64,000 bases of DNA from Sedimentisphaerales bacterium (GTDB taxonomy: Bacteria; Planctomycetota; Phycisphaerae; Sedimentisphaerales; Anaerobacaceae), in the NCBI GenBank assembly GCA_050012515.1, contig JBEKHA010000013.1, forward strand, positions 1,441 through 65,440. The letters are read 5' to 3'. The notes below the pieces were generated by a model. The model worked only from the letters and a program-made list of their open reading frames with translations, searched no databases and was not told the origin of the DNA. Within the stretch, counting starts at the first letter, position 1; the number at the start of each line of letters is the position of its first letter. Positions 11,294-27,433 of this stretch are shown piece after piece. The translations under genes were made by a program, and so were the position numbers.

Positions 11294-11294
11294 C

Positions 11295-12560
11295 TTAATC
11301 CTCCTTGAAATAACGCTTACGTATGTCAGTAGAAACCTTGTCCTTGCCAGCATAAGAGATATAACGATGCACAATTGCATCGCAATAACGAGAATCTATT
11401 TCAAGGCCATAGCAGCGACGGCCGAGACCTTCGGCGGCAATAAGCGTCGAGCCTGAACCCAGGAACGCATCCAGGACGATGTCGCCTTTGACCGAACTGT
11501 TTATTATCGCACGCTGCGCCAGTGCGATTGGCTTCTGCGTGGGGTGAATATAATTTTTATTTGCGTCGCGTTTTACCTCCCAGACGGTGCTTTCGCTCGT
11601 TGAGCCAAACCAGCGGTGGCTGCCGTTATTTTCGAGCCAGGCGTAAAGACAAAACTCTGCTTGCTCATGATAATCACCGAATGACATGGCAAAATTCGGC
11701 TTGGCCCAGACAATAACCGAAGCGACGTGGAAACCTAGCTCCTCGAGCTGGGCATGCATGGGTCCGAAGTTTTTGTGCCCGTTCCAGATGTAGGCAGCCG
11801 CTCCCCTGTCCATAAATTTCACTATATGGGAGAATACCTTGCGAAGCAGGTCACTGTATTCCAGCTCGCCTATGTTGTCACCATGTATCTGTGCCCATCG
11901 GCAGGATTTCCTGGTGCAGGCATTGGGATTGGGTCTATCGCCAGCCACGTAGGCGACGTTATAAGGCGGATCCGTATGAACCAGACCTACTTTTTCCACC
12001 GATATAAGGCGTTCGAGATTTTCCAGAACCGAGCAGTCTTCGCAGAGGATTTTATGAGGACCAAGTTCGATAAGCTCACCTTTTTGGGTGACGGGCTCAA
12101 TTATGGATTCAGCTACCCCCTCGGTATCAAAATCGTCCTCCCCTCCTGTCTCCAGATAGCGGTCGATGAGCTGACCGATTTCAACAGGAGTAAAACCCGT
12201 CGTCCCTACGTCCAGGTAGGGAACCCTTGTAAGCTCATCTAGTAGCAAGGCCAGCTTTTCCTTGTCCCAAGACCCCTGTACCTTATTTAATGCCAAGTTA
12301 AGGGCTTTTTCTTTTTCAAGTGGCAGGTCAACAACACTCACCTCGATTTCCGTGCAGCCCTTCCGCACCAGGATCTTAAATCGCTGGTGGCCGCCAACGA
12401 GGTTTTTAGTACGCCGGTTCCAGACAAGCGGCTCTACAAGCCCGAAACCGTCGATACTCGCCTCGATCTGCTTGTACTCCGGATCATCCGGCTGCAAATC
12501 CTTGCGAGGGTTGTGTGGTGCAGGATTAATTTCGCTGATTGGTATTTTCTTGATTTCCAT
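11295..12560 (-). CDS. ParB-like nuclease domain fused to a DNA N6A/N4C methyltransferase
   Basis: N-terminal 'INPAPHNPRK...GGHQR' (ParB/Srx type). Methyltransferase motif IV 'DPPYN' precedes motif I 'DAFLGSGST'. RBS before the ATG at 12560. Confidence 0.85.
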   Translation of the reverse strand: MEIKKIPISEINPAPHNPRKDLQPDDPEYKQIEASIDGFGLVEPLVWNRRTKNLVGGHQRFKILVRKGCTEIEVSVVDLPLEKEKALNLALNKVQGSWDKEKLALLLDELTRVPYLDVGTTGFTPVEIGQLIDRYLETGGEDDFDTEGVAESIIEPVTQKGELIELGPHKILCEDCSVLENLERLISVEKVGLVHTDPPYNVAYVAGDRPNPNACTRKSCRWAQIHGDNIGELEYSDLLRKVFSHIVKFMDRGAAAYIWNGHKNFGPMHAQLEELGFHVASVIVWAKPNFAMSFGDYHEQAEFCLYAWLENNGSHRWFGSTSESTVWEVKRDANKNYIHPTQKPIALAQRAIINSSVKGDIVLDAFLGSGSTLIAAEGLGRRCYGLEIDSRYCDAIVHRYISYAGKDKVSTDIRKRYFKED

Positions 12561-12620
12561 GTTTGTCTCCTTTCTGTATGTTTTCATTATGTAAGTATTC
12601 ATTTAAACTAAAAAAATATA

Positions 12621-13424
12621 TTACACATTTATACCCGCTTGCCTATCTTCATTCTCCAGTTCGCTAGCCATCTTAACCCACTCTAGCTGGGAAATTTCTT
12701 TCTTCCTAAGGCCCTCAACCGCAGTTTTAGTAGTGGCCTCCATCATCTTAAGACCCAAACTGACGCTATAAGCCAGCATTTTTTTCTCTTTTTCGAGCCC
12801 CTTATCCACTACCTCGTACCGGAGGGCATGGTCTCGTATTTTTTCATTAATCTCAAAGTATTTCCTACAATTGCATTTTGCTTCTTCCTCTATCCGGCCA
12901 AACACCTCGCTTAGTACCCCGTCTTCGCCGACTCCGTACCGCTCAATTAACATCCGCTTGGCAACTCGATAATTTATAAAAAAACCTTCATCTCTTATTA
13001 ACGGGTTAACAAATAAGCTGGTACTTGCCAGATAGTTAAGTTTATTCAGCTCCCTCACCACCTGCTCGTCCTTGGCAATCCTCTCAAAGCTTAGGCCCTT
13101 GACATCTTTCAATTCTATTATCAAACCAAGGTAAGCTATAATCTCCTTCGGATAAAATACCGTTCTGCCCTTTAATTTTTTGAGCTTTTCCGGAAAACGT
13201 TCCAACAGGATTTTCCTGATTTTTCTGTTAACATATACGTGGTTAGCCTTAATAACAGGCGGCGGCAAAAGACCGTGTCTGGCACCGAGATTATGAAACC
13301 AAAAGCGCGTCTTCTTTTTGCTCTTCAAAAAATCTTCAACCCGCTTTGCGGTAACCAACTCTTTTCTATAGTCAACCATAGTGGCTCTTTTACAAATGAA
13401 TTCCTTCATAATGAAAGTAATCAT
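12621..13424 (-). CDS. Hypothetical protein (possible regulator, divergent from the recombinase)
   Basis: Clean ORF with an AGGA RBS before the ATG at 13424. No motif recognised. Confidence 0.5.
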   Translation of the reverse strand: MITFIMKEFICKRATMVDYRKELVTAKRVEDFLKSKKKTRFWFHNLGARHGLLPPPVIKANHVYVNRKIRKILLERFPEKLKKLKGRTVFYPKEIIAYLGLIIELKDVKGLSFERIAKDEQVVRELNKLNYLASTSLFVNPLIRDEGFFINYRVAKRMLIERYGVGEDGVLSEVFGRIEEEAKCNCRKYFEINEKIRDHALRYEVVDKGLEKEKKMLAYSVSLGLKMMEATTKTAVEGLRKKEISQLEWVKMASELENEDRQAGINV

Positions 13425-13674
13425 ATATTTTCCTTCGGCATCTGTCAACCCTTTTCTTTAATTTTTTTGTGCCGGCTGTTGGGTGTGGGTAAAGTCAGAC
13501 GTATCAACGCCGAATCAGCAGATTAGCATAAATCTTGCGAACTGACGGCAAAAACCGCATTATTGGCGCAAAAACGGCGATATATCAGCTAAATATCGGC
13601 CTAATCAACTTGATATAAGCCCGCATATAGAGCCCATATAGGGGGTAATATTAACCCTTTTATGGAGGCTTATT

Positions 13675-15507
13675 ATGATAAGGGCCAACACCGAACAACG
13701 CCCGCTAAACCGGGCCGTCGGCTACGTCCGCCGGTCCACAGACCGGCAGGAACAATCCATTCCCGACCAGAAAAAAGCCATAGAAAACTACGTCGCCGAG
13801 CACGACCTGCGCCTTACGAAGTTCTACGTGGATGATGCCATAAGCGGCACATCCACCATTGGCAGACGAGCCTTTCAGCAAATGATTGCGGATGCCCAGA
13901 AAACAAACAGTCAATTCGACAAGATAGTAGTCTATGATGTGAAACGTTTCGGCAGAATTGATAACGATGAGGCGGGCTACTATCGTCACATCCTAAGGAC
14001 CAATGGAGTTGAAGTTATCTACGTCTCCGAGAATTTTAACGGTGATGTCACCGATGACCTGCTTCGACCGGTCAAGCAATGGCAGGCAAGGCAGGAATCC
14101 AAAGATTTATCGAAGGTAACTATCAGAGGCCTACTTTCAAAGGTCGAAGGCGGCTGGTGGATGGGAGGCACACCCCCCTACGGCTATGACCTGCGATACG
14201 AAAACGCCGAGGGCAAGTTTTTATTCATAATACGCTTTATGCCAGATGGCTCAAAACAGCTTCTCGACAAACAAGGCAACGTAACCCGAACCCTAACCAG
14301 GGGTGAATCACTCAACATATCCAAACGTGACCAGGCAAAACTTATATTCAGTGATAACCAGCGAGTAAAAGCAGCCAGACAAATCTTCCAGATGTATGCA
14401 GAGCAAGGCAAAGGTTACAAATCCCTTGCAGATACCCTCAATCAACAAGGCATCCCTACGCCAAGAGGACCACAATGGGCGCACATCTATCGAGGCAAGT
14501 GGACCGATACAACCATAAGGGCCATCCTGGTCAATCCTATTTATGCCGGGGATATGGTCTGGAATCGTCGAACCGATGCACGCTTCCACAGGATAAGCCA
14601 GGGCCGGGCCATAGACCGTGAAAATGTACACGGGGCGAGGTTGGTACCTAATGATCAAAGCGACTGGATTGTCATTCGAGATGCCCACCCCGCATTGATA
14701 AACAGGCGCCTGTTTGAACAAGCCAAGCAACGGCTTGAAAATCATCCCAAGGCAATTGAGCAAAAACAAAACACCCACGGCAGGACATGGAACGGCCAGC
14801 GGAGCAGGTTCATACTCTCCGGGCTTTTAAGATGCGCCCTGTGCGGCAACCGTTATCAGGGAGTTACCCGTGAGAAAGGGGAAAAACGGCTGGATGGCAC
14901 AAGAATCAAAAACTACTACTATGGCTGCGGCGGCTATATAACCAAGGGCACAACCATCTGCCAGATTAATGCCATTCCAAAAGAGGTGCTCGAATCGAAA
15001 GTCATCGAAACGGTGCTGGACTTTTATAAGCCGTATCTTGAAAAAGATGGCCGATTGAAGCTCGCTGAGGCCGTAAAGGCCCAGACGGGCGCAGAAAAAG
15101 AAGACATCGCCTCAGCACGCCAAAGGGCACAGGCTGAATTGGAAAATATAACCAAAATCATAAATAACCTCTTAGACAATCTTACAGAAACCAACCGTGA
15201 GCACGTAGATAAACGGCTCAACGAACTGACCACCAAAAAGCAGCAAATTGAAGCCCGGCTGGAAGAACTGGAGCGACTGTCGCTGTCGCAGGCCGAGATA
15301 GATACGATAGTAGCCGATGGTATGCGGTTTTTAGCAGGGCTGGATTTTACCCTCCGTAACGGCCTGCCTGAAGAGAAACTGACCGCCCTGCGCCAATGTA
15401 TCGAAAAAATACATATCAATAAGCCTGCCAAGAAAGCTGTTTTGACAATTCGGCTGGTTCCGGTAGGTGGTCTTAACGCAGTCCAGGAAAGAAACATTTC
15501 TATATAG
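13675..15507 (+). CDS. Large serine recombinase (phage-type integrase)
   Basis: 'AVGYVRRSTDRQ' resolvase catalytic-Ser motif. Recombinase domain. Zn-ribbon 'CALCGN...YYYGCGGY..C'. Long coiled-coil. GGAGG RBS. Confidence 0.92.
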   Translation: MIRANTEQRPLNRAVGYVRRSTDRQEQSIPDQKKAIENYVAEHDLRLTKFYVDDAISGTSTIGRRAFQQMIADAQKTNSQFDKIVVYDVKRFGRIDNDEAGYYRHILRTNGVEVIYVSENFNGDVTDDLLRPVKQWQARQESKDLSKVTIRGLLSKVEGGWWMGGTPPYGYDLRYENAEGKFLFIIRFMPDGSKQLLDKQGNVTRTLTRGESLNISKRDQAKLIFSDNQRVKAARQIFQMYAEQGKGYKSLADTLNQQGIPTPRGPQWAHIYRGKWTDTTIRAILVNPIYAGDMVWNRRTDARFHRISQGRAIDRENVHGARLVPNDQSDWIVIRDAHPALINRRLFEQAKQRLENHPKAIEQKQNTHGRTWNGQRSRFILSGLLRCALCGNRYQGVTREKGEKRLDGTRIKNYYYGCGGYITKGTTICQINAIPKEVLESKVIETVLDFYKPYLEKDGRLKLAEAVKAQTGAEKEDIASARQRAQAELENITKIINNLLDNLTETNREHVDKRLNELTTKKQQIEARLEELERLSLSQAEIDTIVADGMRFLAGLDFTLRNGLPEEKLTALRQCIEKIHINKPAKKAVLTIRLVPVGGLNAVQERNISI

Positions 15508-15547: not shown

Positions 15548-15571
15548 AACCTCCGACCTCCGGGTTATGGG
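15548..15571. repeat. 24-bp direct repeat identical to an internal part of tRNA-Met (distal att site)
   Basis: 'aacctccgacctccgggttatggg' is identical to 27378-27401, checked base by base. It overlaps an 8-bp inverted repeat ttatgggg/ccccataa at 15564-15584. Confidence 0.85.
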
Positions 15572-15758
15572 GCGGCTCCCCATAAAACGCCCATATGCGT
15601 CTGGAAATATATTTGCAGCAAGGATTGGTGGCGATGATGATTTCGCCGGGGGTAAAAACTACCTAAACAGAAGGTGAGAGCCAAGTAGGGCTTGCGGATA
15701 GTGCAAATACGGTTGGAAATAAAGCGTTTTTTGCGAGAGACGTGATACTTTAAAGCAA

Positions 15759-18700
15759 TTATTTGGTGCTGAAAATTTCAAGTACTTTTAAGCATATCGA
15801 TCCGGTAGGGAGTTTTGCTTGAACTTGTTCTTCTACCTGTTTGCCCAATAAAGCACGTGCAATTGGAGTCCTTTCGTTCACAATACCAAAATCGGGATTT
15901 GATTCGCCTTTACTAATGCTCACCTCCAAAATGTCATTAGGATTCTGCAAGTCCATATACCTTACAGTATCGCCTACCTTCACAACAACAGAACTACCCA
16001 CCTCCGGTTTGCTCATCTTCCACATGTCGTCAGAGAAAGGCTGGTCAAGTGTATTTGCAGATAATGGCATGATACCTCTATCTTCGAGGAGGTTCCATAA
16101 AGGAGCCAAAGCATTTGCCGGATCCATATAAAACGATGAACCTCTAACTCGATAGAATACCCATTTGCACCGTTCAAGCATTCGTTGCCGCTGCATATCC
16201 TGCTCGTATCGGTCAGCGCCGTGGAATTCGTCCCCGTCGCACTCGACAGCTAACCGAGACTGATGTCCTTCGATGACCAAATCTATGAACTTGCCAGCGA
16301 CCTCAAACTGTGGGATTACTCTGTACCCCTTACCTGCGATTTCAAGAGCAACATCAACTTCAAACCAGCTTTCGAATGGTGATGGTGGTTTTTCAATCGC
16401 CCGGTTTGCATTAAGTGCCGTTTTTTTCAAAGTAGCAATATCTAAACCAGCGATTGATTGCACCCTCGTTTCCTCAAAGAACTCCAGCAAGCGCCTCCGC
16501 AAACATTTTGTACTGAGGTCATTGCGAGTTACAGAGTGAAACAGCCACATTTGATCTCTTGCGCGGCTTGCAGCGACATTGAATCGTCTTTCATCGTCAG
16601 CATCACCCATTACACCGATTTGTTCATTCGGAGCCGCAACCATCGAAAGAAACATTACGTCTCGTTCATCACCTTGAAAGCTATACGGGTTGCCGCAGAT
16701 AAGACGACGGTTTTCCATCTCACTGGCCCCAAGGCGCTCGAGGAGCATAGACTCAATCAATTTTGCTTGCTGTTCACCCTGCAATACCACAACGCCCATT
16801 GATTTGCTTGAGTATTGAGGATCATTACAACAATCCACAATGCGCTGAACAATTTCTTCTGCCTCAGGCCGATTGGTAACGTTGGCATTCGAACCTTGTC
16901 GATGACCTTTTTGAATGAAAACGTTCTCCAAAGGCTTTAATCGATTGGGTGGATATTGCCTCAATGGTATTAGGGGAGTGGACGAATAACATAAATCATT
17001 GCTGAAGTGAATGATTTCCGGCATACAACGGAAGTGTTCCCGCAAAGCTACCCTGCGAGTCCCATATCTGAGTTTTCCGTGACTGAAGAGGCTGCTTTCT
17101 ACACCGAAAGAATCTTTAAAGCGAAAATCATGTAGAAACTCCTCCATTAGCCGATAAACAGCATCACGTGGGATACCAACTGCGTCAGGGCTGATTTGCT
17201 TGTCATCGCCGACGATGATTATCTTGCGACCTAAGTAAAATAAGGGTAGAGATTCAGGTCCACACTGTGATGCCTCATCAACAATGATTGTATCGAACAT
17301 TTCAGGTTTGGGGTCAACGGTATCCCAAACCCTATGGAGTGGCATAACCCAGGCAGGTACAACATCCACACATTCATTCAAATGTTTCTGAGCATCGCGG
17401 CGATGTCTTGGAGCGTGTTTGCCCGTACCCTTACCAAGTTTTCTAATAGACTGTTGCCAAGCTTCAAGGTGACGAAGATGTACTTCCTCCATACGCTTAA
17501 AACAAAATGACCATGCCCGTAAAGATGCAATCGCGGATATTCGTTTTTCTATGTCATTTTCTACCTGACGAACACGTCTTTCAATACTAAGAAGGTCATC
17601 CTTATTCAGATAATTGTTGAGATATACTTTGGCCTGAGCCCATTGCCAAGCTTTGGAGAGCTGAGGCAATCGAGAGTCCCAAACCGATTCATTAGGTGTT
17701 TCTTGCAAGCTGTGCGCAAAACGAGGCGCCAATTCTTTAATTTGTTTAAGAAACAAATCTGCCCATCGTACGACCTGAGCGGCTTTATCGATTTTATCAA
17801 TATCATGTTTCGCGCGAAGCAGTTCTTCAGAATCGTGTGACCTAATCGCTTGGAGAGATTTGTTAACAACTGAATGGGCATTCGACCTCATCGACAGGTC
17901 AAGCAAGTGATTTTCCCAAGATTCAATCTTTGCAGTGACACTTTGTTTCTGAAACAAAGCGAGAACTCGCTGACAAGATACAAACATTTTATTTAAATAG
18001 GAATCGTCGTGCCATACTGGTTCTGGAATGTTGCCACAAAGCGCAAGATGCTCTTTACATTGCTTAACAAAATCCTGGAGTTCGAATGCTTGATTAAGTA
18101 GGTTTTTACGATGTTTGAGTTCCGCTATCTGAAAACTTATTGGGTGACTATTTTCCGGAAAATACGGAGTCCAAGAGTCCCAAGCATTCTGTAGTGCTTT
18201 CTCCAATTCAAGGTTATTTACGAGATCCCGAATAGTTTCCAAGGTACGACATTGTTTGCTGTTAACAAAAACAGATTCTAATATATAACGACGTTGCCTT
18301 ACTACTTTGGGACGGAATACTGCCCATCCCAGAGAGGAACCAGATTCCAGGTGCGTTTTGAGGATTTTAGCGTCCTCAAGCAGGTGCGTTCGATTTATGT
18401 TTTCCGGCGAAACAATGGGCGCAAGTCCTTTTCGTTCTTCGTATAGATCTAACGATTCTGAGGTCAAACAACCAAGGTCCCACCAACGACTGTGATTTCC
18501 AGAAAGAATATCCTGCACGCATCTTGAAACCCATGATTCAGTATTGCTGCGAAGGTGCGTGACAGAGTCGTTCAATTGCTTAATGCTCTCGAGGAGAGCC
18601 CTCACATCAGATTCTTTACAGGAGGAAAGATGGTCATAAATGATCTTGTCGGAATTAGGAGCAAGAGCTTCAATTTGGTTACAGAATTGTTGCTCCTGCC

Positions 18701-20486
18701 TCACGGCGTTCTCAAAATCTTCTTGTTGAGGCAAGTCCTTATTTGGATCAGGGATGAAATGTGCAAGATCTTTTCGGCGTTCGGGTGTCAGTTTGCGAAG
18801 AATGGTCAAGAGTCGCGTGAGATGATGAACCTCGAAAGGGCATTCTTTTTCGCTTGGGACTGGATCATCAAGCCAATTGAATAGCGGTTCGTTTTTGAGA
18901 ACAGTTCTTGCGATTTGGGCTGCTGTACCCTGATATGACCCGTTCGCAATGACCTGAGTATGGGTCTCGGATTCACGAATATCACGAATACGCCTTTCCA
19001 ACTGTGCCTTCTCTTGGCGAAGTTCTTTTAATTGAGCACTCATTCTTTCGCACTCACCGTGTCGGATTAGATTTTCTGTGTCCCATTCGTCATGTTTACT
19101 CAAAATGCGTCCAACACTTGCTTCTAGCGATCGCTGCTCATCGATTCCCTGACCGAGCAGATTAACGCATAAAGGTCGAATTTCCTCGGGGAGCAATCCT
19201 TCTAATACATGAAGCGCGCGAGGGGTTTTTGCGGTGACCAATACACGATGATCAGTAGCGAGAAGATGACAAATTAAATTTGCGATTGTGTGTGATTTTC
19301 CGGTACCAGGTGGGCCTTGGACAAGAATTCCGGTCGATTTTCTAAACTTTTCAATGATATGTCGCTGTTCATCATTTGCTGGTTTTGGAAAATATACCTC
19401 CGTGTCAATCATATCGGTTTCGAAATCATCATCCGGTTTATCTTGATGGTCTGCCGTATTCGGTATCTCTGCAAGATCTGCGAATTCCGATGGGATTCTT
19501 CCGCCTTGCTCAATAGATTGTTTCATATTCTTTAATATCTCAGTTAGCCCTCTGATAGATCTCTTACGAAGAATTAAGGCCGGTGCATATTGTACGATGG
19601 GTTTCACTGAGAGTGGTTCGCTTGCAGGTTCAATGACCTCACGGTATTCGCCATCAGGTTTAATCGAATGGACGAGTCCTTTTAAGACAGATTCGATAGA
19701 CGCTTGTTCCCAAGGGTCGTCATGAGTTCCCTGCAAACCTTCTTTGGCTGCGCGTTCCGCACCCGCAGGATGTTCTTCGACATCGAGCATATCAATTTCT
19801 ATGGTAAGTTGGGCGCCTTCTCTGGCCGGATGAATTGTGAAACGGCCGAGAGACGCTTCGAATTCAAGAGTGGCTTTTGCAGTTATTAAATGTCGCCTCA
19901 CATGCTGATTCTGAGGTGTTTGCCAGCATAAAAGCCCGAGACCAACCACAAGCTCATATTCCTCACCTAAACGTTTTTGCTCCTGGTATATTGTAAAAAG
20001 CTGCGAATATACTTTATGAATTGTTTCCCATTTTTTGTATAAATGAGACCAAGGCATCCAATTTCGTTCTATGTAGTTCTGCCATGCGTTAGCAACTTCA
20101 GGATAGTCAGCCAATTTTTCTGTCTTCGTAATGAACGCCAATTCCGAAGAACCTTTTGTCCATGCAGGATTTGGCTCCTGCTTTGTGATCTCATCGTGTA
20201 AAGCGGGAATATCCGTTGTCAGGTGAAGCGACTCTTGTATTACCCAATCACGGCAAACTTTTGGGATAGTTGGCAATTGCGGTTCTTTAGCAGTCTGCAC
20301 CTCTATCCATACATCAGGGTCGTGTTCTTCTTCTGGCCCCCAGAGACGAGTATAGCACCCCTTTTCGTGTGGGATCTCATGTAGCCACAGGACTCGCTCA
20401 TATTCACTGAAGTCCCTTATTATGCGAGATCGCAAATGGGCAATACGTATCAGATATTCAACCAATCTAACAGCTTTTTCGCTCAT
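15759..20486 (-). CDS. 1575-aa SF1 (Upf1/Dna2-like, AAA_11/AAA_12 type) helicase fused to a Vsr/DUF559-like endonuclease and a GreA/GreB C-terminal-like domain
   Basis: Walker A 'GPPGTGKS' (nt 19293-19316, aa 391). Walker B 'VDEASQ' (aa 1070), after a ~650-aa coiled-coil insert. 'FRCMPEI' and 'NVAASRAR' helicase motifs. Nuclease-like 'FIDLVIEG...AVECDGDEFH' (aa ~1372-1455). C-terminal 76 aa include 'TPIARALLGKQVEEQVQAKLPTG', which is GreA-C-like. Confidence 0.85.
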   Translation of the reverse strand: MSEKAVRLVEYLIRIAHLRSRIIRDFSEYERVLWLHEIPHEKGCYTRLWGPEEEHDPDVWIEVQTAKEPQLPTIPKVCRDWVIQESLHLTTDIPALHDEITKQEPNPAWTKGSSELAFITKTEKLADYPEVANAWQNYIERNWMPWSHLYKKWETIHKVYSQLFTIYQEQKRLGEEYELVVGLGLLCWQTPQNQHVRRHLITAKATLEFEASLGRFTIHPAREGAQLTIEIDMLDVEEHPAGAERAAKEGLQGTHDDPWEQASIESVLKGLVHSIKPDGEYREVIEPASEPLSVKPIVQYAPALILRKRSIRGLTEILKNMKQSIEQGGRIPSEFADLAEIPNTADHQDKPDDDFETDMIDTEVYFPKPANDEQRHIIEKFRKSTGILVQGPPGTGKSHTIANLICHLLATDHRVLVTAKTPRALHVLEGLLPEEIRPLCVNLLGQGIDEQRSLEASVGRILSKHDEWDTENLIRHGECERMSAQLKELRQEKAQLERRIRDIRESETHTQVIANGSYQGTAAQIARTVLKNEPLFNWLDDPVPSEKECPFEVHHLTRLLTILRKLTPERRKDLAHFIPDPNKDLPQQEDFENAVRQEQQFCNQIEALAPNSDKIIYDHLSSCKESDVRALLESIKQLNDSVTHLRSNTESWVSRCVQDILSGNHSRWWDLGCLTSESLDLYEERKGLAPIVSPENINRTHLLEDAKILKTHLESGSSLGWAVFRPKVVRQRRYILESVFVNSKQCRTLETIRDLVNNLELEKALQNAWDSWTPYFPENSHPISFQIAELKHRKNLLNQAFELQDFVKQCKEHLALCGNIPEPVWHDDSYLNKMFVSCQRVLALFQKQSVTAKIESWENHLLDLSMRSNAHSVVNKSLQAIRSHDSEELLRAKHDIDKIDKAAQVVRWADLFLKQIKELAPRFAHSLQETPNESVWDSRLPQLSKAWQWAQAKVYLNNYLNKDDLLSIERRVRQVENDIEKRISAIASLRAWSFCFKRMEEVHLRHLEAWQQSIRKLGKGTGKHAPRHRRDAQKHLNECVDVVPAWVMPLHRVWDTVDPKPEMFDTIIVDEASQCGPESLPLFYLGRKIIIVGDDKQISPDAVGIPRDAVYRLMEEFLHDFRFKDSFGVESSLFSHGKLRYGTRRVALREHFRCMPEIIHFSNDLCYSSTPLIPLRQYPPNRLKPLENVFIQKGHRQGSNANVTNRPEAEEIVQRIVDCCNDPQYSSKSMGVVVLQGEQQAKLIESMLLERLGASEMENRRLICGNPYSFQGDERDVMFLSMVAAPNEQIGVMGDADDERRFNVAASRARDQMWLFHSVTRNDLSTKCLRRRLLEFFEETRVQSIAGLDIATLKKTALNANRAIEKPPSPFESWFEVDVALEIAGKGYRVIPQFEVAGKFIDLVIEGHQSRLAVECDGDEFHGADRYEQDMQRQRMLERCKWVFYRVRGSSFYMDPANALAPLWNLLEDRGIMPLSANTLDQPFSDDMWKMSKPEVGSSVVVKVGDTVRYMDLQNPNDILEVSISKGESNPDFGIVNERTPIARALLGKQVEEQVQAKLPTGSICLKVLEIFSTK

Positions 20487-20782
20487 AAATGGCGCTGCCC
20501 AACTAAAACCTCTGCGTTAAGACCTCCTGACATAACAATAAAGATTATCGTCTTTTTTCGCCAATCAGTCAAGAACGATAAGATGATAACGCTGAAGTAT
20601 GGCGTAGGTGCTTATTTTCAATACTGTAAACGGCAAAATTGGCCAGCAAGGTAGGGCAAATCGCAAACCCCCGATTGCGGTCCCATATAGGGTCATAAGT
20701 TTAAGGAATAAAAAGACAAAAGTAAAGCAAAAGTGACATTAAACCGGACATTAATAAAAGCTACATTATTCAGTTTTATATT

Positions 20783-21403
20783 TCATCTATCCGTTAGCCC
20801 CAATTCGATTATGCTATTGACCACCTCTTTGAGCTTGATAGCCTCAACGCATTCGCTATCCTTTGATGGTAAATCTTCCAAAAGGAGCAAGAAGGGACTT
20901 AGCGTTCTTTTATCGATCTTTGCAGGTGCCAGCTTCATTGCCTTGACAAATTTAGTGTTATTGATAATACTAATCCAGCCACTTATCCGCCTTAATTCAG
21001 CTACGACTTCTTCCCCTATAAGAGATTTTAACTGCTCGGGGTCATCTCGTTTCTTAAGTTGCTCAAACTCAATTAGTTCTATATAGGCGGGGATCACTTT
21101 ATTATGCACGGCTGTACACAGCTCTTCTCGAGTCTTGGCTATCGATTGGGAATCGCTCCTGAGTTCATTTATCAGCCTTAGCGCAACCTGTTTAGAACTC
21201 TCCAAGATGTCATTATATGTCGCTCGTTTTATTTGAAGTTTCTCAAGATTTTCACCGGCATATCTGAACGCTTCTTCCTTGAACTTGGCTGTCTCGGCTT
21301 TTAATTTGCCAATCTCGACCTTGACACGCCATTGCTTCCCAAACCAGCCTACAAGCCCCCCTACGCCTACACAAATCGCGTTTAGCCAAAGGAGACCCAT
21401 CAT
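20783..21403 (-). CDS. Hypothetical membrane-anchored coiled-coil protein
   Basis: 206 aa. N-terminal TM 'LLWLNAICVGVGGLVGWF'. The start overlaps the upstream stop (TAATG). Confidence 0.6.
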   Translation of the reverse strand: MMGLLWLNAICVGVGGLVGWFGKQWRVKVEIGKLKAETAKFKEEAFRYAGENLEKLQIKRATYNDILESSKQVALRLINELRSDSQSIAKTREELCTAVHNKVIPAYIELIEFEQLKKRDDPEQLKSLIGEEVVAELRRISGWISIINNTKFVKAMKLAPAKIDKRTLSPFLLLLEDLPSKDSECVEAIKLKEVVNSIIELGLTDR

Positions 21404-21660
21404 TATTTACCTTCTAACTCTCTCTTGAGGTCCTGCATGACCCTGTCGAAATCATCCGATGACGACCTCTTTTCAATAATCTGGCCTTCTGAAAAAGAAG
21501 TAACTATCGAAAGAGCTATGATAATTTTATTATATGGAGTACCGGATGCTTGCTGATAGGACTGGTATAACCTGCTTGCTTCCTGTTCAGTCAGCTTTCT
21601 GCCTGCCAGCTTTTCAGCAGCTTCCCTTAATAATCGCCTGATCTCATACTCACTTGACAT
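21403..21660 (-). CDS. Hypothetical small protein (85 aa)
   Basis: AAGGA RBS 8 nt upstream of the ATG. Translationally coupled to the 206-aa gene. Confidence 0.55.
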   Translation of the reverse strand: MSSEYEIRRLLREAAEKLAGRKLTEQEASRLYQSYQQASGTPYNKIIIALSIVTSFSEGQIIEKRSSSDDFDRVMQDLKRELEGK

Positions 21661-22025
21661 GGCTCAATCCTTTCACAAAATGGTTTTTCTTTGCGTGCTC
21701 CAATACGAACACTACTATCTCTGCCCATAACACAGCATCTTCCAAAAGACCCTCTATGTTGCAGCAATTTCCCGACCCCACAATACCCCAAACCCTGTCT
21801 TTCGTCAATAATCGCTTTGCCCGCAAGGCTGGATTAACCCGGCTTTGCCTTGGGAAAGGCAAAAATGGAACTGTCATGTATCTAAGAGAAGAGGTTGTTG
21901 CCTATGAAAAACAAAGGCTGATTTCGACAAAATAAAAATCAAAGAAATCAGCAAAATCAAAATAAATCAAATATTTCAAAACTGCCCCGGTTTTGTGATC
22001 GCAAGTCCTTTTCCGGGGTAGTTGT

Positions 22026-23012
22026 CTACACAATATTAGATAAATCTGCCAGATATTTCCTCGTGTATCGTTTTGTTTTGGTATGCTCCCAAGTTTTCCT
22101 TATTCCAATTATAGAATTTATTGTTAGAGTCGCCCCAGCTGCGGCCTCTACAGCACAAGCTAAGAGACTCGAAGGGTCCTGGATAAAAAGACTCAATCCT
22201 AAACCAAATTGAATCCCTTCTCCTCCAAGTTGTACAATCTCATCTGAATATTGTTGAAAGATGCTGTCCCTTCTATCTAAGAATCCGCGATCAGCTTTGC
22301 CTTGCTCAAGATCATCAAAATATTTGTCCAACTCGTCGTGAAAAGCATGCAAGCGTTCTTTGAATCCTTTGCAGTTTCTGAATTGAATGATTCGATCTAG
22401 ACTGATTTGATGAAGATTTTTAGGTATTTTTAGCTTTAACAGTCCTTTGGCAATATCAATTTTTTCAGCTAGCTTCTTGTTGGGTCTGCGAGCAATACAT
22501 TCGAGTTCGTAGTACTCTTTGTAATCTGTTATTGGAGGTAATGATTTATCGTCTCCCATGATTTGTGCCAATAGAGACATGTACAAGAACCCCAAAGTAT
22601 TAGGTATAGCAATACCCTCCGAAACATTCCTCCCAAAACTGTTTTCAATACAATATCTTTCAAAATCATAGGAATATTTCTCGCTGTATATAGTACATTT
22701 CTGGTTTGATGGCGCTCTCCAATGGTTAATAAAGTCTGGCTCTTTAATTATCCCTGAATATACCTTGGGTTTTTTCACAACTTCTTCTATAACCCTTATT
22801 GCATCCAATGAAGCTAACCATGCATCCTCAGGCGTCGGATAAAGAGGCTCTAGGAGATCTGTTTCATTAAATACCTTTACATGCTTATCGCTAAGCTCTT
22901 TTTGTGCCGACCATGGGATTATGGGTTTTAGTTTGTCTATATAAAGAAGCGCAAACTTCAGCCAATCATCACTTTGAACTTCAAAACTAGGATAGTATAG
23001 TAATTTTTTCAT
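22026..23012 (-). CDS. Hypothetical 328-aa protein, third gene of the Gabija-like operon
   Basis: Starts 12 nt after the gajB-like stop. N-terminal 'LLYYPSFEVQSDDWLKFALLYIDKL' (I recall a DUF6236-like family; unverified). Hydrophobic C-terminal segment 'GLGLSLFIQDPSSLLACAVEAAAGATLTINSIIGI'. Confidence 0.65.
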   Translation of the reverse strand: MKKLLYYPSFEVQSDDWLKFALLYIDKLKPIIPWSAQKELSDKHVKVFNETDLLEPLYPTPEDAWLASLDAIRVIEEVVKKPKVYSGIIKEPDFINHWRAPSNQKCTIYSEKYSYDFERYCIENSFGRNVSEGIAIPNTLGFLYMSLLAQIMGDDKSLPPITDYKEYYELECIARRPNKKLAEKIDIAKGLLKLKIPKNLHQISLDRIIQFRNCKGFKERLHAFHDELDKYFDDLEQGKADRGFLDRRDSIFQQYSDEIVQLGGEGIQFGLGLSLFIQDPSSLLACAVEAAAGATLTINSIIGIRKTWEHTKTKRYTRKYLADLSNIV

Positions 23013-23024
23013 CTATCGGATCTC

Positions 23025-24998
23025 CTATACTTTAAGAATTAACCAACCATTGCCACTGAAAGCTTTGGGATCAAACCTATCCTTGTGAACTGCGAAACAT
23101 AATAAGTGCGTAGGTCGAGAAAAACCAACATAGACCATTCTCGCGCTTTGTTTTGTCCTATCACTAACCTTATCAGCTATTGTTTGGCCAGCAAACTGTT
23201 CTTTTAACCGTTGAGATTCATAAGATTTCGCATTTTCCCCATTGCCATCTTTATAATAATAGCTTTCCAAATATAGTGTTGCTGTATGTGTTTGGCCTTT
23301 TACAGAATGTACAGTTCCGATCTCAACGGCAATATCAGTCTTTTGACACCGATATATGTTATTTTTGGGTTTGGCATCGCTAGATTTGTCGGATGGTTCC
23401 GATATTGTCAGTGAGCTTTCGTCATTCACGAACTCAAACGATTTTTCTAAATTCCTTCCAAAACAATTCACAAATTGAGGGATAATATTCTTTATGTCAG
23501 AAAAGGCGTGATTAATTTTCTCTGAATAGATATCCCGGCACCAGTGGAAAAGTAGTAATCGAAAATCTTCATAGAAGCCTGTGTGTTCGTCCTTTAAATG
23601 TTTCTGCAAACTACCAATAGAAAAGTATCCGGTTTTGCTTTCAGGATTTTTTACTTGTTCTAAACGTAAAACTTTCAAAAAAGCATTCAAGATACTCTTG
23701 TAAATACTTTCTATGCCGTCTTTTTGTGAACCTTCTTTTTTTGCGAATAGCAGATAGCTTTTAAAGTTAGGATAGTCTGTTTTTGACTTAAAGGCATTTG
23801 TTTCAAAGTCAGGCCAATAATTTTTCAACCCAAATTTCCCGTCCTCACCTTTTCTCCATGCAATAGCTTTGATGGGATATTCGTAGTTCTCCGGGATTTT
23901 CCCACCATCTATATATTTCCTTACCAGTTCACAAAACTTTGGTAAAACATTCGATATTGAATTATCGTCAAAGACAATTACATGAGGAGGTAGGGCATCC
24001 TCTTGTGCATTTCTTCCCACAATCGGCTCACGTGGCATTCCAAATGGCTCAACTATTTTCGCAATCATTGATGATAACCGGCGGCTTCCAGTTATGGGAA
24101 GAACAGTTGCCCTGCTTATCCAAATATCGTCAAGCTTGATATCTCCAGAAAATATGGCCTGATTCTTATCGCCAATTCGCTGGTAAATGGAAGAACTATT
24201 GACATCATTAAAAATTTGTTCGAGTAAATTATACTGATGATAGTCCATATCCTGCATTTCATCGACAAAGGCATACCGAAATCGCTGCTGAAGTAAACGT
24301 TGCAATATGGGGTTTAATTTTATTGCTTTCAATGCCAATACGTAAGCATCATCGTAACATAAGATGCCTTTTTCTCTTAGTGCTTGCTTCATTTCGAGTA
24401 ATGATATGTATGTGTCACTATTTCTGTCTTTCAAAGGAAATCTATAATTGGCAATCACTAATTCATCGTTCTCGTTTAGACGGGATTCGTATAGAACGTC
24501 TCCTTTCTGGTAAGGATGATTGTCCAGCCATGCATAAGCTTTAGCAGGAATGTAAATATTCTCATTGTAACTCTCGTCATCAATTCGCCATGGTCTTTTA
24601 CCATACTTCTGCGTGTAATGCGGAATAGCCAAGAAAATATCAGCAAAGGTTTGAATAGTTCCAACAAAGTTCGGATATGCAAAGAGCTTAGGACAGTATT
24701 GGCCGATTCTCTTTTTTATTTCGTTAACCGCAGCATTAGTATGGGAGATTACAAGAATCCCCGAACCTTCTTCGAATGGTAAATGCCTTTCTAGTATTAG
24801 AAGTTTTGCAAGAAGAACGGTTGTCTTGCCGCTTCCCGGAACTGCTTGTAAGTCAATTGTTTCCAAATTTTTTATAAAGGCCTTGCGTTCATTGCGATCA
24901 TCGTCAAATGCTCCCCCCTTACCGAACAGGATCATTTCTGCGTGGGCAATGTCATTATCATTTATTTCTATCTTAGGCCGTGACATATTTAATAGCAT
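23025..24998 (-). CDS. gajB: UvrD/PcrA-like SF1 helicase (GajB-like)
   Basis: 'AVPGSGKTT' Walker A. 'FVDEMQD' Walker B. C-terminal 'TVHSVKGQTHTA'. Overlaps the end of the OLD-nuclease gene. An alternative ATG exists at 24986. Confidence 0.8.
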   Translation of the reverse strand: MLLNMSRPKIEINDNDIAHAEMILFGKGGAFDDDRNERKAFIKNLETIDLQAVPGSGKTTVLLAKLLILERHLPFEEGSGILVISHTNAAVNEIKKRIGQYCPKLFAYPNFVGTIQTFADIFLAIPHYTQKYGKRPWRIDDESYNENIYIPAKAYAWLDNHPYQKGDVLYESRLNENDELVIANYRFPLKDRNSDTYISLLEMKQALREKGILCYDDAYVLALKAIKLNPILQRLLQQRFRYAFVDEMQDMDYHQYNLLEQIFNDVNSSSIYQRIGDKNQAIFSGDIKLDDIWISRATVLPITGSRRLSSMIAKIVEPFGMPREPIVGRNAQEDALPPHVIVFDDNSISNVLPKFCELVRKYIDGGKIPENYEYPIKAIAWRKGEDGKFGLKNYWPDFETNAFKSKTDYPNFKSYLLFAKKEGSQKDGIESIYKSILNAFLKVLRLEQVKNPESKTGYFSIGSLQKHLKDEHTGFYEDFRLLLFHWCRDIYSEKINHAFSDIKNIIPQFVNCFGRNLEKSFEFVNDESSLTISEPSDKSSDAKPKNNIYRCQKTDIAVEIGTVHSVKGQTHTATLYLESYYYKDGNGENAKSYESQRLKEQFAGQTIADKVSDRTKQSARMVYVGFSRPTHLLCFAVHKDRFDPKAFSGNGWLILKV

Positions 24999-26796: not shown

Positions 26797-26855
26797 AATA
26801 ATCAAAGCTCACATTATCTTGTTCTCTTATCATTAATACTTCCGTATCTAGCTAT

Positions 26856-27152: not shown

Positions 27153-27370
27153 TTAAAATCCGAGACAAAACGAAAAGAGATAACTCCCTTTGAGCAGGAA
27201 GTTATCTCTTTAAACCAATAGCGGGGGATGTCTTCGTATCACCGACTTGTTAAAATGGGCAAGGTCGGAGGTTCGTAACGGGTGAAAAGCAAGATTTCAA
27301 AAAAAGAGATAACTCTTTGGTAAACAAGATGTTACAAAAAAGTTATCTCTGCAAACCACTAGCGGGGGGA
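27144..27370. repeat. Two degenerate tandem copies of the tRNA 3-prime end, its terminator hairpin and the island junction (att scars)
   Basis: Unit 1 (27144-27228) and unit 2 (27274-27370) share 'cgtaacgggtKaaaaKc...aagagataact..gttatctct..aaaccaMtagcggggg'. An inverted T-arm fragment 'ggtcggaggttcg' lies at ~27263-27275. Confidence 0.7.
27299..27350 (-). terminator. Rho-independent terminator of tRNA-Met
   Basis: 9-bp stem agagataac/gttatctct with a long loop, followed by a U-tract on the minus-sense transcript. Confidence 0.55.
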
Positions 27371-27433
27371 GGATTCGAACCTCCGACCTCCGGGTTATGG
27401 GCCCGACGAGCTACCAGACTGCTCTACCCCGCG
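27360..27433 (-). tRNA. tRNA-Met (CAT), initiator-like
   Basis: Hand-folded cloverleaf. Acceptor CGCGGGG/CCCCGCU with a 1:72 mismatch. Three consecutive G:C pairs close the anticodon stem. The loop is CCCAUAA. The T-arm is GGAGG-TTCGAAT-CCTCC. No CCA is encoded. Confidence 0.85.
27378..27401. repeat. 24-bp direct repeat (proximal att core inside tRNA-Met)
   Basis: Identical to 15548-15571. It spans the anticodon loop to the 5-prime strand of the T-stem. Confidence 0.85.

What the first reader, a model, noticed from the sequence alone, without database searches (positions are those of the whole stretch)
15759..20486. Giant helicase / Vsr-like nuclease / GreA-C fusion as a candidate stand-alone defence protein
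The 1575-aa ORF sits at the distal end of the tRNA island. Its domain order is:

- a DUF4011-like N-terminal region ('YELVVGLGLLCW...')
- a Upf1/Dna2-type SF1 helicase split by a ~650-aa coiled-coil (Walker A at aa 391, DEASQ at aa 1070)
- a Vsr/DUF559-type PD-(D/E)xK-like module ('KFIDLVIEGHQSRLAVECDGDEFH', nt 16122-16373)
- a terminal 76-aa domain matching the GreA/GreB C-terminal domain

Helicase-nuclease fusions of this kind recur in defence islands (Nhi-like and Mokosh-like logic). This exact architecture is not one I can assign to a named system. It has its own ~300-bp upstream spacer, so it is probably an independent transcription unit.
Basis: partly seen in the sequence, partly recalled or inferred. 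Interest (0 to 1): 0.72.

Follow-up and report, generated by a model that had tools for sequence, protein, structure and literature searches.

The report
Mobile helicase-nuclease with an RNA-polymerase-docking tail
A 1575-residue stand-alone helicase-nuclease sits in a tRNA-linked genomic island and belongs to a large unnamed family whose swappable C-terminal tail is here the part of transcription factor GreA that grips RNA polymerase, so it is a plausible but untested anti-phage enzyme that may act at transcription complexes.

Summary
The ORF (15759-20486, minus strand, 1575 aa) is real. Three of the four reported modules are confirmed:
- an Upf1/Sen1/Dna2-type SF1 helicase, with Walker A at aa 391-398 and DEASQ at aa 1070-1074, split by a ~590-aa all-helical insertion;
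- an MTES_1575 (Vsr-like) nuclease;
- a GreA/GreB C-terminal domain.

The "DUF4011-like" N-terminus is not confirmed. It is a well-folded domain with no Pfam match and no PDB fold match, and it defines a large family: 1471 clusters at 50% identity and at least 591 species across many phyla.

The gene is stand-alone, with no conserved neighbour in about 80 loci. It also looks mobile:
- here it lies in an 11.8-kb low-GC segment with Gabija, bounded by a 24-nt tRNA-Met direct repeat;
- elsewhere it lies in a Mu-like prophage, in a restriction/GmrSD island and on plasmids.

It falls far below the NCBIfam cut-offs for ProA and Hhe.

The new point is that the C-terminal tail is an exchangeable module. 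It is mostly winged-helix, but recurrently Gre-CTD. One lineage carries a full sigma-70 factor and one protein carries an RpoA alpha-CTD.

My best reading is a single-protein defence nuclease tethered to RNA polymerase. Neither the function nor the docking has been tested. I class it as a new variant of a known kind, interest about 0.64.

The parts
15759..20486 (-). Whole ORF, 1575 aa plus stop codon: stand-alone helicase-nuclease with a Gre-CTD tail
   Evidence: full-length homologues at ~50% identity
19452..20486 (-). N-terminal signature domain (aa 1-345). Alpha/beta fold with a 48-residue helix and many invariant Trp residues. No Pfam family and no PDB fold match
   Evidence: AF2 pLDDT 82.8; Foldseek best E 0.49; phmmer found 1471 clusters, always at the N-terminus of 1450-2030-aa proteins; no DUF4011 hit
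19146..19391 (-). Start of helicase RecA1 (aa 366-447), including the Q-motif region and Walker A GPPGTGKS (aa 391-398, nt 19293-19316)
   Evidence: Pfam AAA_11, AAA_30 and AAA_19; invariant columns
17376..19145 (-). All-alpha insertion of ~590 aa inside RecA1 (aa ~448-1037), conserved across the family
   Evidence: AF2 secondary structure and pLDDT 80-90; conserved Trp and Cys columns; same position as the 'large helical insertion after Walker A' described for CnuH helicases (PMC11090510)
16467..17375 (-). Rest of RecA1 plus RecA2 (aa 1038-1340): DEASQ (aa 1070-1074, nt 17265-17279), GDDKQISP, QGDERD and RRFNVAASRARD motifs
   Evidence: Pfam AAA_11 and AAA_12; best PDB sequence hits Sen1, Upf1/Nam7, Dna2; Foldseek Setx/Sen1 2.7e-10
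16089..16364 (-). MTES_1575 / Vsr-like PD-(D/E)xK nuclease (aa 1375-1466) with its catalytic residues intact
   Evidence: Pfam 6.8e-28; D1402, E1415 and H1422 invariant
15993..16055 (-). Predicted disordered linker (aa ~1478-1498). It is longer and acidic in most homologues
   Evidence: pLDDT <50; tails listed
15774..15986 (-). GreA/GreB C-terminal globular domain (aa 1501-1571), the proposed RNA-polymerase docking module
   Evidence: Pfam 36 bits against a cut-off of 26.9; NCBIfam GreA models down to 4.5e-8; E. coli GreA 1GRJ residues 89-155; Foldseek GreA/Gfh1
20487..20782 (-). 296-bp upstream spacer with a promoter-like site at 20544-20572
   Evidence: a consensus match only, not above chance for the region
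15548..15571 (.). Distal copy of the 24-nt direct repeat AACCTCCGACCTCCGGGTTATGGG, marking the far boundary of the 11.8-kb segment that carries the gene
   Evidence: sequence
27378..27401 (.). Proximal copy of the same 24-nt repeat, inside tRNA-Met (27360-27433, minus strand)

Best explanation
The gene encodes a stand-alone, horizontally mobile helicase-nuclease. It belongs to the Upf1-like group that also contains the anti-phage proteins Hhe, ProA and MkoA/MkoC and the CoCoNuT helicase CnuH. Within that group it forms its own large family, defined by a unique N-terminal domain.

The most likely role is defence against phages or other mobile DNA.

Proposed mechanism, step by step:
1. The C-terminal Gre-CTD, on a flexible linker, docks the enzyme on the beta-prime rim helices at the secondary channel of host RNA polymerase. 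This is inferred from homology.
2. The N-terminal domain and/or the helical insertion hold the enzyme inactive until a signal of infection or of an abnormal transcription complex appears. This step is pure inference and the trigger is unknown.
3. The SF1B motor translocates 5'->3' on single-stranded DNA or nascent RNA. This is inferred from intact motifs and from the similarity to Sen1, Upf1 and Dna2.
4. The Vsr-like nuclease cuts the nucleic acid at or near the transcription complex. This is inferred from intact catalytic residues. The result would be destruction of transcribed invader DNA or a block on its expression.

In relatives the tail is exchanged for other modules: winged-helix domains, a whole sigma-70 factor, an alpha-CTD. 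The tail therefore looks like a targeting adaptor rather than part of the catalytic core.
For: Shown by the tools:
- Domain content, with invariant helicase and nuclease residues.
- The helicase is of the Sen1/Upf1/Dna2 type.
- The Gre-CTD is genuine.
- There is no conserved partner gene.
- The family is large and spread across many phyla at ~35-55% identity: at least 591 species and 1471 clusters.
- The gene's GC content departs from its flanks.

Mobile or defence contexts:
- tRNA-Met repeat-bounded segment with Gabija.
- Mu-like prophage.
- Position between a DNA methylase and portal/terminase genes in IMG/VR contigs.
- Island with PLD-SNF2, an Eco57I-type RM gene, NucS-like and GmrSD genes.
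- Fragmented integrase plus Phd/ParE.
- Plasmid copies, two of them interrupted by IS elements.
- Defence hits among the nearest neighbours: Avs4, CBASS cyclase, DrmD, DpdF, PsyrT, ZacA, type I REases, SoFic.

Closest profiles:
- All are anti-phage families: ProA, Hhe, PDC-S37, MkoA/C.

Tail exchange:
- 56 Gre, 73 'W' winged-helix-like, 30 DUF3320-type, 1 sigma-70 and 1 alpha-CTD among 200 proteins.
- Tail types interleave on the core tree, with about 52 changes.
- Sigma70 r2+r3+r4 and RNA_pol_A_CTD both score above the Pfam cut-offs. RpoD models reach 258 bits.
- The sigma-fused protein is identical on 7 contigs from different samples.

Literature:
- The Gre globular domain gives high-affinity binding to the beta-prime rim helices, and the SF1 NTPase HelD uses a Gre-like arm to act on RNA polymerase (PMC7749165).
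Against: - There is no experimental evidence for any member of this family.
- Docking to RNA polymerase was not tested; no complex model could be run.
- Most tails in the family are winged-helix-like and have no demonstrated link to RNA polymerase.
- The sigma-70 fusion is one lineage. The alpha-CTD fusion is a single protein on a single 7-kb contig, and no second example of either was found.
- Several homologues lie among ordinary housekeeping genes.
- The frequency of defence genes among neighbours has no matched control.
- No full-length copy occurs in cultured phage genomes.
- The trigger and the way self is told from non-self are unknown.
Confidence: 0.5

Rival explanations
1. Housekeeping or accessory transcription-associated genome maintenance. 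The enzyme would be a bacterial counterpart of Sen1/senataxin, HelD or Mfd that is recruited to stalled or backtracked RNA polymerase through the Gre-CTD. It would remove the polymerase or R-loops, and the nuclease would process the DNA.
For: - The best structural relatives of the motor are Setx/Sen1, including a Sen1-Pol II pre-termination complex.
- HelD is a precedent for an SF1 NTPase with a Gre-like element acting on RNA polymerase.
- Several homologues sit among housekeeping genes, for example next to tig/clpP/dnaA and scpAB.
- The whole protein is highly conserved, with 63% mean column identity.
Against: - The distribution is patchy, with no synteny anywhere.
- Copies are carried by prophages, islands and plasmids, and some are interrupted by IS elements.
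- The gene's GC content departs from its flanks.
- The tail is exchanged rapidly.
- All the nearest named families are anti-phage.
Confidence: 0.14
2. Integrated-decoy sensor. The Gre-CTD, sigma-70 and alpha-CTD tails would not tether the enzyme to RNA polymerase. They would instead mimic host transcription components that phage proteins bind or modify. Capture of such a phage protein by the tail would switch on the helicase-nuclease.
For: - The tails are exchangeable and interleave on the core tree, as expected of a specificity module under an arms race.
- Sigma-70 region 4 and the alpha-CTD are classical targets of phage take-over proteins such as T4 AsiA and Alt/ModA (my own knowledge, not checked here).
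- The flexible linker suits a bait.
Against: - The sigma tail keeps regions 2, 3 and 4 at 46-47% identity to primary RpoD, which is more than a bait for a region-4 binder would need.
- I know of no phage factor that targets the Gre globular domain.
- Most tails are winged-helix domains.
Confidence: 0.12
3. A weapon or fitness factor of a mobile element rather than host immunity. The gene would be cargo of prophages or islands, used for superinfection exclusion, competition between elements, or host transcription shut-off during induction.
For: - It lies inside a Mu-like prophage after the early/middle region.
- It lies next to portal and terminase genes in IMG/VR contigs.
- In the window it abuts a phage-like remnant, whose ParB-methylase has a homologue beside the giant gene in L094/L095.
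Against: - Only 10 of 2.9 million viral contigs carry it and no cultured phage does, whereas most copies are chromosomal.
- Superinfection exclusion by a prophage is in practice the same as defence, so this rival overlaps the main explanation.
Confidence: 0.1
4. The Gre-like tail has nothing to do with RNA polymerase. It would be a small beta-rich, FKBP-like module reused as a generic nucleic-acid- or protein-binding domain, and the enzyme would work like Hhe-type proteins whatever its tail.
For: - The Pfam score is modest (36 bits).
- Homologues with no tail, or a very short one, exist: 30 of 200.
- The most common tails are winged-helix-like.
Against: - The most conserved Gre-CTD motif (S/T-P-I-A-x-A-L-L-G ... 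P-x-G) is retained, and the tail aligns over almost the whole E. coli GreA CTD.
- Two other transcription-machinery modules occupy the same position in relatives.
Confidence: 0.14

Closest known systems
Hhe (single-protein anti-phage system: DUF4011 + SF1 helicase + Vsr-like nuclease; NCBIfam NF042953, PADLOC PDLC02194)
   Same: - A giant stand-alone protein.
- A Upf1-like SF1 motor followed by an MTES_1575/DUF559-type nuclease.
- Family relatives carry the DUF3320 winged-helix tail typical of this group.
   Different: - Only the C-terminal ~430 residues match (137 bits against a cut-off of 2000).
- The N-terminal domain is not DUF4011.
- There is a 590-aa helical insertion.
- The tail is Gre-CTD.
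ProA anti-phage protein (NCBIfam NF058533) and PADLOC candidate PDC-S37
   Same: These are the best-scoring profiles. The match runs through the helicase, the insertion and the nuclease: aa 347-1463 for ProA and aa 349-1468 for PDC-S37.
   Different: - Scores are 195 bits against a cut-off of 1500 for ProA, and 193 bits for PDC-S37.
- The first ~625 ProA profile positions and the last ~200 are unmatched.
- Five distant family members also fail the ProA cut-off.
- I could not find a paper describing either system in the held library.
CoCoNuT type III-B CnuH (PMC11090510)
   Same: A Upf1-like SF1 helicase with a large helical insertion right after Walker A, fused directly to a Vsr-like nuclease.
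   Different: CoCoNuTs are McrBC-type operons (CnuB/CnuC plus CnuA). Here there is no conserved neighbour at all. The N-terminal domain and the tail also differ.
Mokosh MkoA / MkoC
   Same: Homologous helicase core (PADLOC MkoC 4e-41, MkoA 1e-30). A defence logic that combines a helicase with a nuclease.
   Different: Mokosh uses a PLD nuclease, either fused or as the partner MkoB. This protein has no PLD domain and no partner. The match is to the helicase part only.
HelD (RNA polymerase recycling NTPase; PMC7749165)
   Same: An SF1 NTPase combined with a Gre-derived element that contacts the secondary-channel side of RNA polymerase.
   Different: - HelD is UvrD-like (SF1A).
- Its Gre-like part includes the coiled coil that enters the channel.
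- It has no nuclease and is a housekeeping factor.
- Here only the globular Gre-CTD is present, at the C-terminus.
Sen1 / senataxin, Upf1, Dna2 (eukaryotic SF1B helicases)
   Same: They are the closest solved structures of the motor. Dna2 also combines an SF1B motor with a PD-(D/E)xK nuclease, and Sen1 acts on RNA polymerase.
   Different: Identity is about 20% and confined to the RecA domains. The accessory domains, the order of domains and the biological setting all differ.
GreA / GreB / Gfh1 / Rnk
   Same: The C-terminal globular domain is homologous over its whole length.
   Different: There is no N-terminal coiled coil with an acidic tip, so no transcript-cleavage function is expected. 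The domain is an appendage of a 1500-aa enzyme.

Membership tests
Upf1-like SF1B helicases | Two RecA domains with motifs I, II (DEAxQ), III (GDxxQLxP), V and VI, and accessory domains inserted in RecA1 | tested here: met
   AAA_11 and AAA_12 hits; motifs invariant; PDB sequence and fold matches to Sen1, Upf1, Dna2, IGHMBP2 and Aquarius
Upf1-like SF1B helicases | 5'->3' translocation on single-stranded nucleic acid | not testable with these tools
   Needs biochemistry
Hhe | Whole-protein score above the NCBIfam equivalog cut-off (2000 bits) | tested here: not met
   137.4 bits, matching only aa 1040-1468
Hhe | N-terminal DUF4011 domain | tested here: not met
   No DUF4011 hit for the query (E<=1) or for 40 diverse N-domains (E<=0.1)
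Hhe | SF1 helicase followed by a Vsr-like nuclease in a single stand-alone protein | tested here: met
ProA (NF058533) | Whole-protein score above the equivalog cut-off (1500 bits), with full-length coverage of the 1903-position profile | tested here: not met
   194.7 bits, profile positions 626-1699 only; five other family members score 168-232 bits
PADLOC PDC-S37 | Full-length match to the 1550-position profile | tested here: inconclusive
   193 bits over profile positions 273-1339. PADLOC gives no cut-off in this tool. The score per residue is low, so this is a relative rather than a member
Mokosh | PLD-family nuclease, either fused (type II MkoC) or as the partner MkoB | tested here: not met
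   No PLD domain in the protein; no conserved partner
CoCoNuT type III-B | Operon with McrB-like GTPase CnuB, McrC-like CnuC and coiled-coil CnuA | tested here: not met
   No recurrent neighbour in about 80 loci. The window neighbours are unrelated ORFs and Gabija
GreA/GreB transcript cleavage factors | N-terminal antiparallel coiled coil with acidic tip residues | tested here: not met
   Only the C-terminal Pfam domain matches. GreA NCBIfam models match profile positions ~84-157 only
GreA/GreB transcript cleavage factors | C-terminal globular domain | tested here: met
   36 bits against a cut-off of 26.9; E. coli GreA residues 89-155; Foldseek matches to GreA and Gfh1
GreA/GreB transcript cleavage factors | Binding of the globular domain to the beta-prime rim helices of RNA polymerase | not testable with these tools
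The property is taken from PMC7749165
Anti-phage defence system (generic) | Enrichment next to known defence genes and on mobile islands | tested here: inconclusive
   Window island with Gabija; RM/GmrSD island; prophages; about 10 or more of 129 nearest neighbours are strong PADLOC hits. There is no matched control, and several contexts are housekeeping
Anti-phage defence system (generic) | Protection against phage when expressed | not testable with these tools
   Needs an experiment

The most novel reading that the evidence does not exclude
This would be a previously unrecognised class of immunity coupled to RNA polymerase. A large family of single-protein helicase-nucleases would use interchangeable modules borrowed from the transcription machinery to ride on, or replace parts of, the host RNA polymerase. 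Those modules are the Gre globular domain, a complete sigma-70 factor and an alpha-CTD. The act of transcribing an invading genome would then deliver a DNA- or RNA-destroying motor to that genome, giving transcription-dependent targeting without a guide RNA.
Probability: 0.27. Interest if true: 0.85.

Novelty: new variant of a known kind. Interest (0 to 1): 0.64.

Why it matters
If the reading is right, three things follow.

- A large and widespread protein family would gain a testable function. It comprises about 1500 clusters at 50% identity, spans bacteria from more than a dozen phyla plus at least one archaeon, and is annotated today only as "AAA domain-containing protein".
- Defence nucleases could be aimed at invaders through the host's own RNA polymerase. 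So far that principle is known mainly from type III CRISPR systems, which need a guide RNA.
- The exchangeable tail offers a natural experiment: swap Gre-CTD, sigma-70 and winged-helix tails on one core and ask what each does to targeting.

The N-terminal domain is confidently modelled but has no solved structural relative, so it is also a candidate new sensor fold.

Tried and rejected
- **DUF4011 assignment of the N-terminus.** Rejected after Pfam scans of the query and of 40 diverse members, and after a Foldseek search.
- **A conserved partner gene or operon.** None was found by all-against-all BLAST of the neighbours of about 80 loci. The four small ORFs upstream and Gabija are therefore not part of this system.
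- **Membership in Hhe, ProA, Mokosh or CoCoNuT.** Rejected on cut-offs or on missing components.
- **Literature on ProA, PDC-S37 or this architecture.** Four searches found nothing relevant. One further search was wasted because 'GreA' matched 'great'.
- **Profile search with the full-length alignment.** It failed because the profile exceeded 1200 positions. I reran it with the N-domain alone.
- **More sigma-70-fused or alpha-CTD-fused members.** None was found. P0271 shares only the terminal winged helix with P0220.
- **Resolving the integration history at tRNA-Met.**
  - The 24-nt repeat is clear.
  - No integrase lies inside the 11.8-kb segment, and the large serine recombinase lies 40 nt outside it.
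  - The expected displaced tRNA 3' end is absent.
  - I leave open whether there are two tandem elements or one composite element.
- **Comparison of the window's terminase-like gene with L094.** The ORF I picked was not homologous. Only the ParB-methylase is shared.
Full report
**1. The observation**

The ORF at 15759..20486 on the minus strand is the longest in the region (1575 aa, ATG start).
- AAA_11 at aa 370-528, plus a second stretch after the insertion.
- AAA_12 at aa 1130-1315.
- The MTES_1575 restriction-endonuclease-like domain at aa 1375-1466 (97 bits, cut-off 38).
- The GreA/GreB C-terminal domain at aa 1501-1571 (36 bits, cut-off 26.9).

Further support for those modules:
- Walker A (GPPGTGKS, aa 391-398), DEASQ (aa 1070-1074) and the later SF1 motifs are invariant in an alignment of 40 full-length homologues.
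- So are the nuclease residues D1402, E1415 and H1422.
- The tail aligns with residues 89-155 of E. coli GreA.
- In the AF2 model the tail is matched by Foldseek to GreA and Gfh1.
- NCBIfam GreA models match only their C-terminal halves. The coiled coil that carries out transcript cleavage is therefore absent.

Two points of the description need correction.
- The N-terminal 345 residues are not DUF4011.
  - Neither the query nor 40 diverse family members hit that Pfam family.
  - All matches to ProA, Hhe and PDC-S37 begin at about residue 347.
  - A confident model of residues 1-375 (pLDDT 82.8, pTM 0.72) has no fold match in the PDB (best E 0.49, TM below 0.12).
- The segment that splits the helicase is a ~590-residue all-helical insertion (aa ~448-1037) predicted with pLDDT 80-90. 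I did not test whether it is a true coiled coil.

The 1575-aa start codon is supported by conservation of residues 7-60, although one database gene call (P0001) starts 62 codons later.

**2. What surrounds it in the window**

Low-GC region:
- GC falls from 0.51-0.56 in the flanks to 0.37-0.48 between about 8.6 and 27.3 kb.
- On one side lie tRNA-Met (27360-27433), a HIT-family gene, rplQ, rpoA and rpsD. On the other lies a phospholipase-B-like gene.

The 24-nt repeat and what it encloses:
- A perfect 24-nt direct repeat occurs at 15548-15571 and, inside tRNA-Met, at 27378-27401. By my estimate the chance of such a match in 64 kb is of the order of 1e-5.
- The 11.8 kb between the copies holds the giant gene, four ORFs with no Pfam or PADLOC match (206, 85, 75 and 328 aa) and a complete Gabija system (GajB E 1e-223, GajA E 2e-211).
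- No integrase lies inside this segment.

Beyond the distal repeat:
- A large serine recombinase ends 40 nt outside the distal repeat.
- It is followed by a ParB-methylase, an HTH protein and a terminase-like gene, which together look like a phage-like remnant.

The exact integration history could not be resolved. The gene is nevertheless clearly part of the accessory, mobile fraction of this genome. The 296-bp spacer upstream contains one well-placed promoter-like site, but the scan as a whole is at chance level.

**3. The family**

Size and spread:
- Full-length homologues are abundant, with more than 100 at 50-55% identity over the whole length.
They come from Planctomycetota, Desulfobacterota, Nitrospirota, Acidobacteriota, Chloroflexota, Bacillota, Actinomycetota, candidate phyla and one archaeon.
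- The N-terminal domain alone retrieves 1471 clusters at 50% identity (881 at E<=1e-10). It is always at the N-terminus of proteins of about 1450-2030 residues. This domain is the signature of the family.

Naming:
- None of five distant members reaches the ProA or Hhe cut-offs.
- RefSeq calls the plasmid copies only "AAA domain-containing protein" or "DUF3320 domain-containing protein".

**4. Stand-alone and mobile**

- An all-against-all comparison of about 1000 ORFs flanking about 80 homologues found no shared neighbour. The best family occurs in 4 loci.
- The 129 nearest neighbours fall into 128 different Pfam families.
- None of the window's neighbours recurs elsewhere.

Contexts seen in detail:

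| Context |
|---|
| Housekeeping genes: tig/clpP/dnaA; scpAB/rluB; sugar metabolism |
| Mu-like prophage, directly after the repressor-transposase-Gam-GemA-Mor region and before the portal and head genes |
| IMG/VR viral contigs, between a D12 methylase and portal/terminase genes |
| Fragmented tyrosine integrase with Phd/ParE |
| Island with a PLD-SNF2 protein, an Eco57I-type RM enzyme, HsdR-N, NucS-like and GmrSD genes |
| Plasmids, including two copies interrupted by IS elements |

- Among the 129 nearest neighbours, strong PADLOC hits (E<=1e-15) include two type I restriction enzymes, two SoFic, Avs4, PsyrT, a CBASS cyclase, ZacA, DrmD, DpdF and several PDC candidates.
- That is roughly 10 or more proteins, well above the 1-2% I would expect for random genes. 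The background figure is my own estimate, and I had no matched control.
- The gene's GC is more than 3 points below its flanks in 27 of 58 loci and more than 3 points above in 6.
- Taken together this is the profile of a horizontally transferred accessory gene with a moderate association with defence genes. It is not the profile of a syntenic housekeeping gene.

**5. The exchangeable tail**

After the nuclease domain and a linker (acidic in most members), the family carries different C-terminal modules.

Counts in 200 full-length proteins:

| Tail type | Number |
|---|---|
| 'W' type, ~85 aa, winged-helix-like, no Pfam family | 73 |
| Gre-CTD | 56 |
| DUF3320-type winged helix | 30 |
| None or short | 30 |
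| Other | 9 |
| Sigma-70 factor | 1 |
| RpoA alpha-CTD | 1 |

Counts in the less biased set of 80 cluster representatives:

| Tail type | Number |
|---|---|
| DUF3320-type | 30 |
| W type | 17 |
| Gre-CTD | 3 |

The two rare tails:
- **Sigma-70 (P0126, 1987 aa).**
  - It matches Sigma70_r2, r3 and r4 above the Pfam cut-offs and RpoD models at up to 258 bits.
  - It is 46-47% identical to primary sigma factors.
  - The protein is found unchanged on 7 contigs from different samples, so it is not an assembly artefact.
- **Alpha-CTD (P0220).** It scores 65 bits against a cut-off of 23.8, but it rests on a single protein on one contig.
- I found no second example of either.

On a neighbour-joining tree of the core, tail types interleave, with about 52 parsimony changes and about 15 for Gre. 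This is a rough tree. The tail therefore behaves as a frequently swapped adaptor.

Three different pieces of the transcription apparatus appear at the same position. This is the main reason to think that the Gre-CTD here is used for what it does in Gre factors, namely binding the beta-prime rim helices of RNA polymerase (PMC7749165).

**6. Mechanism**

What is shown:
- An intact SF1B motor of the Sen1/Upf1/Dna2 type.
- An intact Vsr-like nuclease.
- A genuine Gre globular domain on a disordered linker.
- A conserved, structurally unassigned N-terminal domain.
- A conserved helical insertion.

What is inferred:
- The tail docks the enzyme at the secondary-channel rim of RNA polymerase.
- The motor moves 5'->3' on single-stranded DNA or nascent RNA.
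- The nuclease cuts nearby.
- The N-terminal domain and/or the insertion sense the trigger and keep the enzyme off in uninfected cells.

I give this RNA-polymerase-tethered defence reading a probability of about 0.5. The rivals and their weights are:

| Rival | Weight |
|---|---|
| Sen1/HelD-like maintenance factor | 0.14 |
| Integrated-decoy sensor in which the tails bait phage proteins that attack the transcription machinery | 0.12 |
| Mobile-element weapon (largely overlaps defence) | 0.10 |
| Tail with no link to RNA polymerase | 0.14 |

**7. Comparison with known systems**

- The general plan of an SF1 helicase, a Vsr-like nuclease and C-terminal winged helices has been known since the description of MTES_1575 (PMC3710099). 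It is also the plan of Hhe.
- A large helical insertion after Walker A and a direct fusion to a Vsr-like nuclease are described for CoCoNuT type III-B CnuH (PMC11090510).
- This protein fails the membership tests for Hhe, ProA, Mokosh and CoCoNuT, either on score cut-offs, on the N-terminal domain or on missing partner genes.
- It works like these systems in outline. It differs in its family-specific N-terminal domain and in a tail taken from the transcription machinery.
- HelD is the nearest precedent for an SF1 NTPase that uses a Gre-like element on RNA polymerase. However, HelD is UvrD-like, lacks a nuclease and uses the Gre coiled coil, which is absent here.

**8. Verdict**

- I class it as a new variant of a known kind: a Hhe/ProA-like single-protein helicase-nuclease.
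- The added observation, that the family swaps its C-terminal adaptor among winged-helix, Gre-CTD, sigma-70 and alpha-CTD modules, gives a specific and testable hypothesis of immunity coupled to RNA polymerase.
- Everything about function remains inference from sequence, predicted structure and genomic context.

Noticed in passing
window 23025-26805 (minus strand): A complete Gabija system lies directly next to tRNA-Met: GajB at 23025-24998 (PADLOC E 1e-223) and GajA at 24973-26805 (E 2e-211).
   Followed up: partly
window 20783-23012 (minus strand): Four consecutive ORFs (206, 85, 75 and 328 aa) lie between Gabija and the giant gene. They have no Pfam or PADLOC match and no relatives beside any of the 80+ homologues. 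They are unassigned island cargo and could be a separate unknown system.
   Followed up: partly
window 8947-15507: A phage-like remnant lies just outside the distal 24-nt repeat: a terminase-like gene (8947-10680), an HTH gene (10610-11380), a ParB-N6 methylase (11295-12602), an unknown ORF (12621-13448) and a large serine recombinase (13675-15507, plus strand). A 31%-identical ParB-methylase (E 6e-60) lies next to the giant-gene homologue in viral contigs L094/L095.
   Followed up: partly
window 27199-27246 versus 27340-27387: A degenerate (79%) 48-nt copy of the tRNA-Met 3' end plus its downstream flank lies 141 nt from the real one. It probably marks an earlier integration or excision event at this tRNA.
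   Followed up: no
window 15565-15585: A perfect 8-bp inverted repeat (TTATGGGG-CGGCT-CCCCATAA) straddles the end of the distal 24-nt repeat, 40-80 nt from the stop codon of the serine recombinase. It could be a recombination site. No run of T follows it on the giant gene's strand, so it does not look like a typical terminator.
   Followed up: no
P0126 locus L096 (gene at 8001-13964): The sigma-70-fused family member sits in a dense defence island, with a PLD-SNF2 protein and an Eco57I-type RM enzyme upstream and HsdR-N, NucS-like, GmrSD and DUF6884 genes downstream. The same arrangement recurs on contigs from different samples.
   Followed up: partly
proteins P0302, P0303, P0320, P0352 and others: A family of ~440-aa planctomycete proteins combines an RpoA alpha-CTD-like domain with TPR repeats. 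Their alpha-CTD is 58-64% identical to the one in the P0220 tail, so that tail may derive from them rather than from RpoA itself.
   Followed up: no
plasmids CP029776.1 (Deinococcus) and CP021182.1 (Rhizorhabdus): The plasmid-borne family members in these two records are interrupted by IS701 and IS1380 transposases, which suggests the gene is dispensable.
   Followed up: no
window 28000-64000: GC skew is strongly negative (about -0.2) across the ribosomal-protein/rpoA/secY region, where nearly all genes are on the minus strand. The tRNA-Trp and tRNA-Thr genes at 60-62 kb fit the usual tuf/secE/nusG neighbourhood.
   Followed up: no
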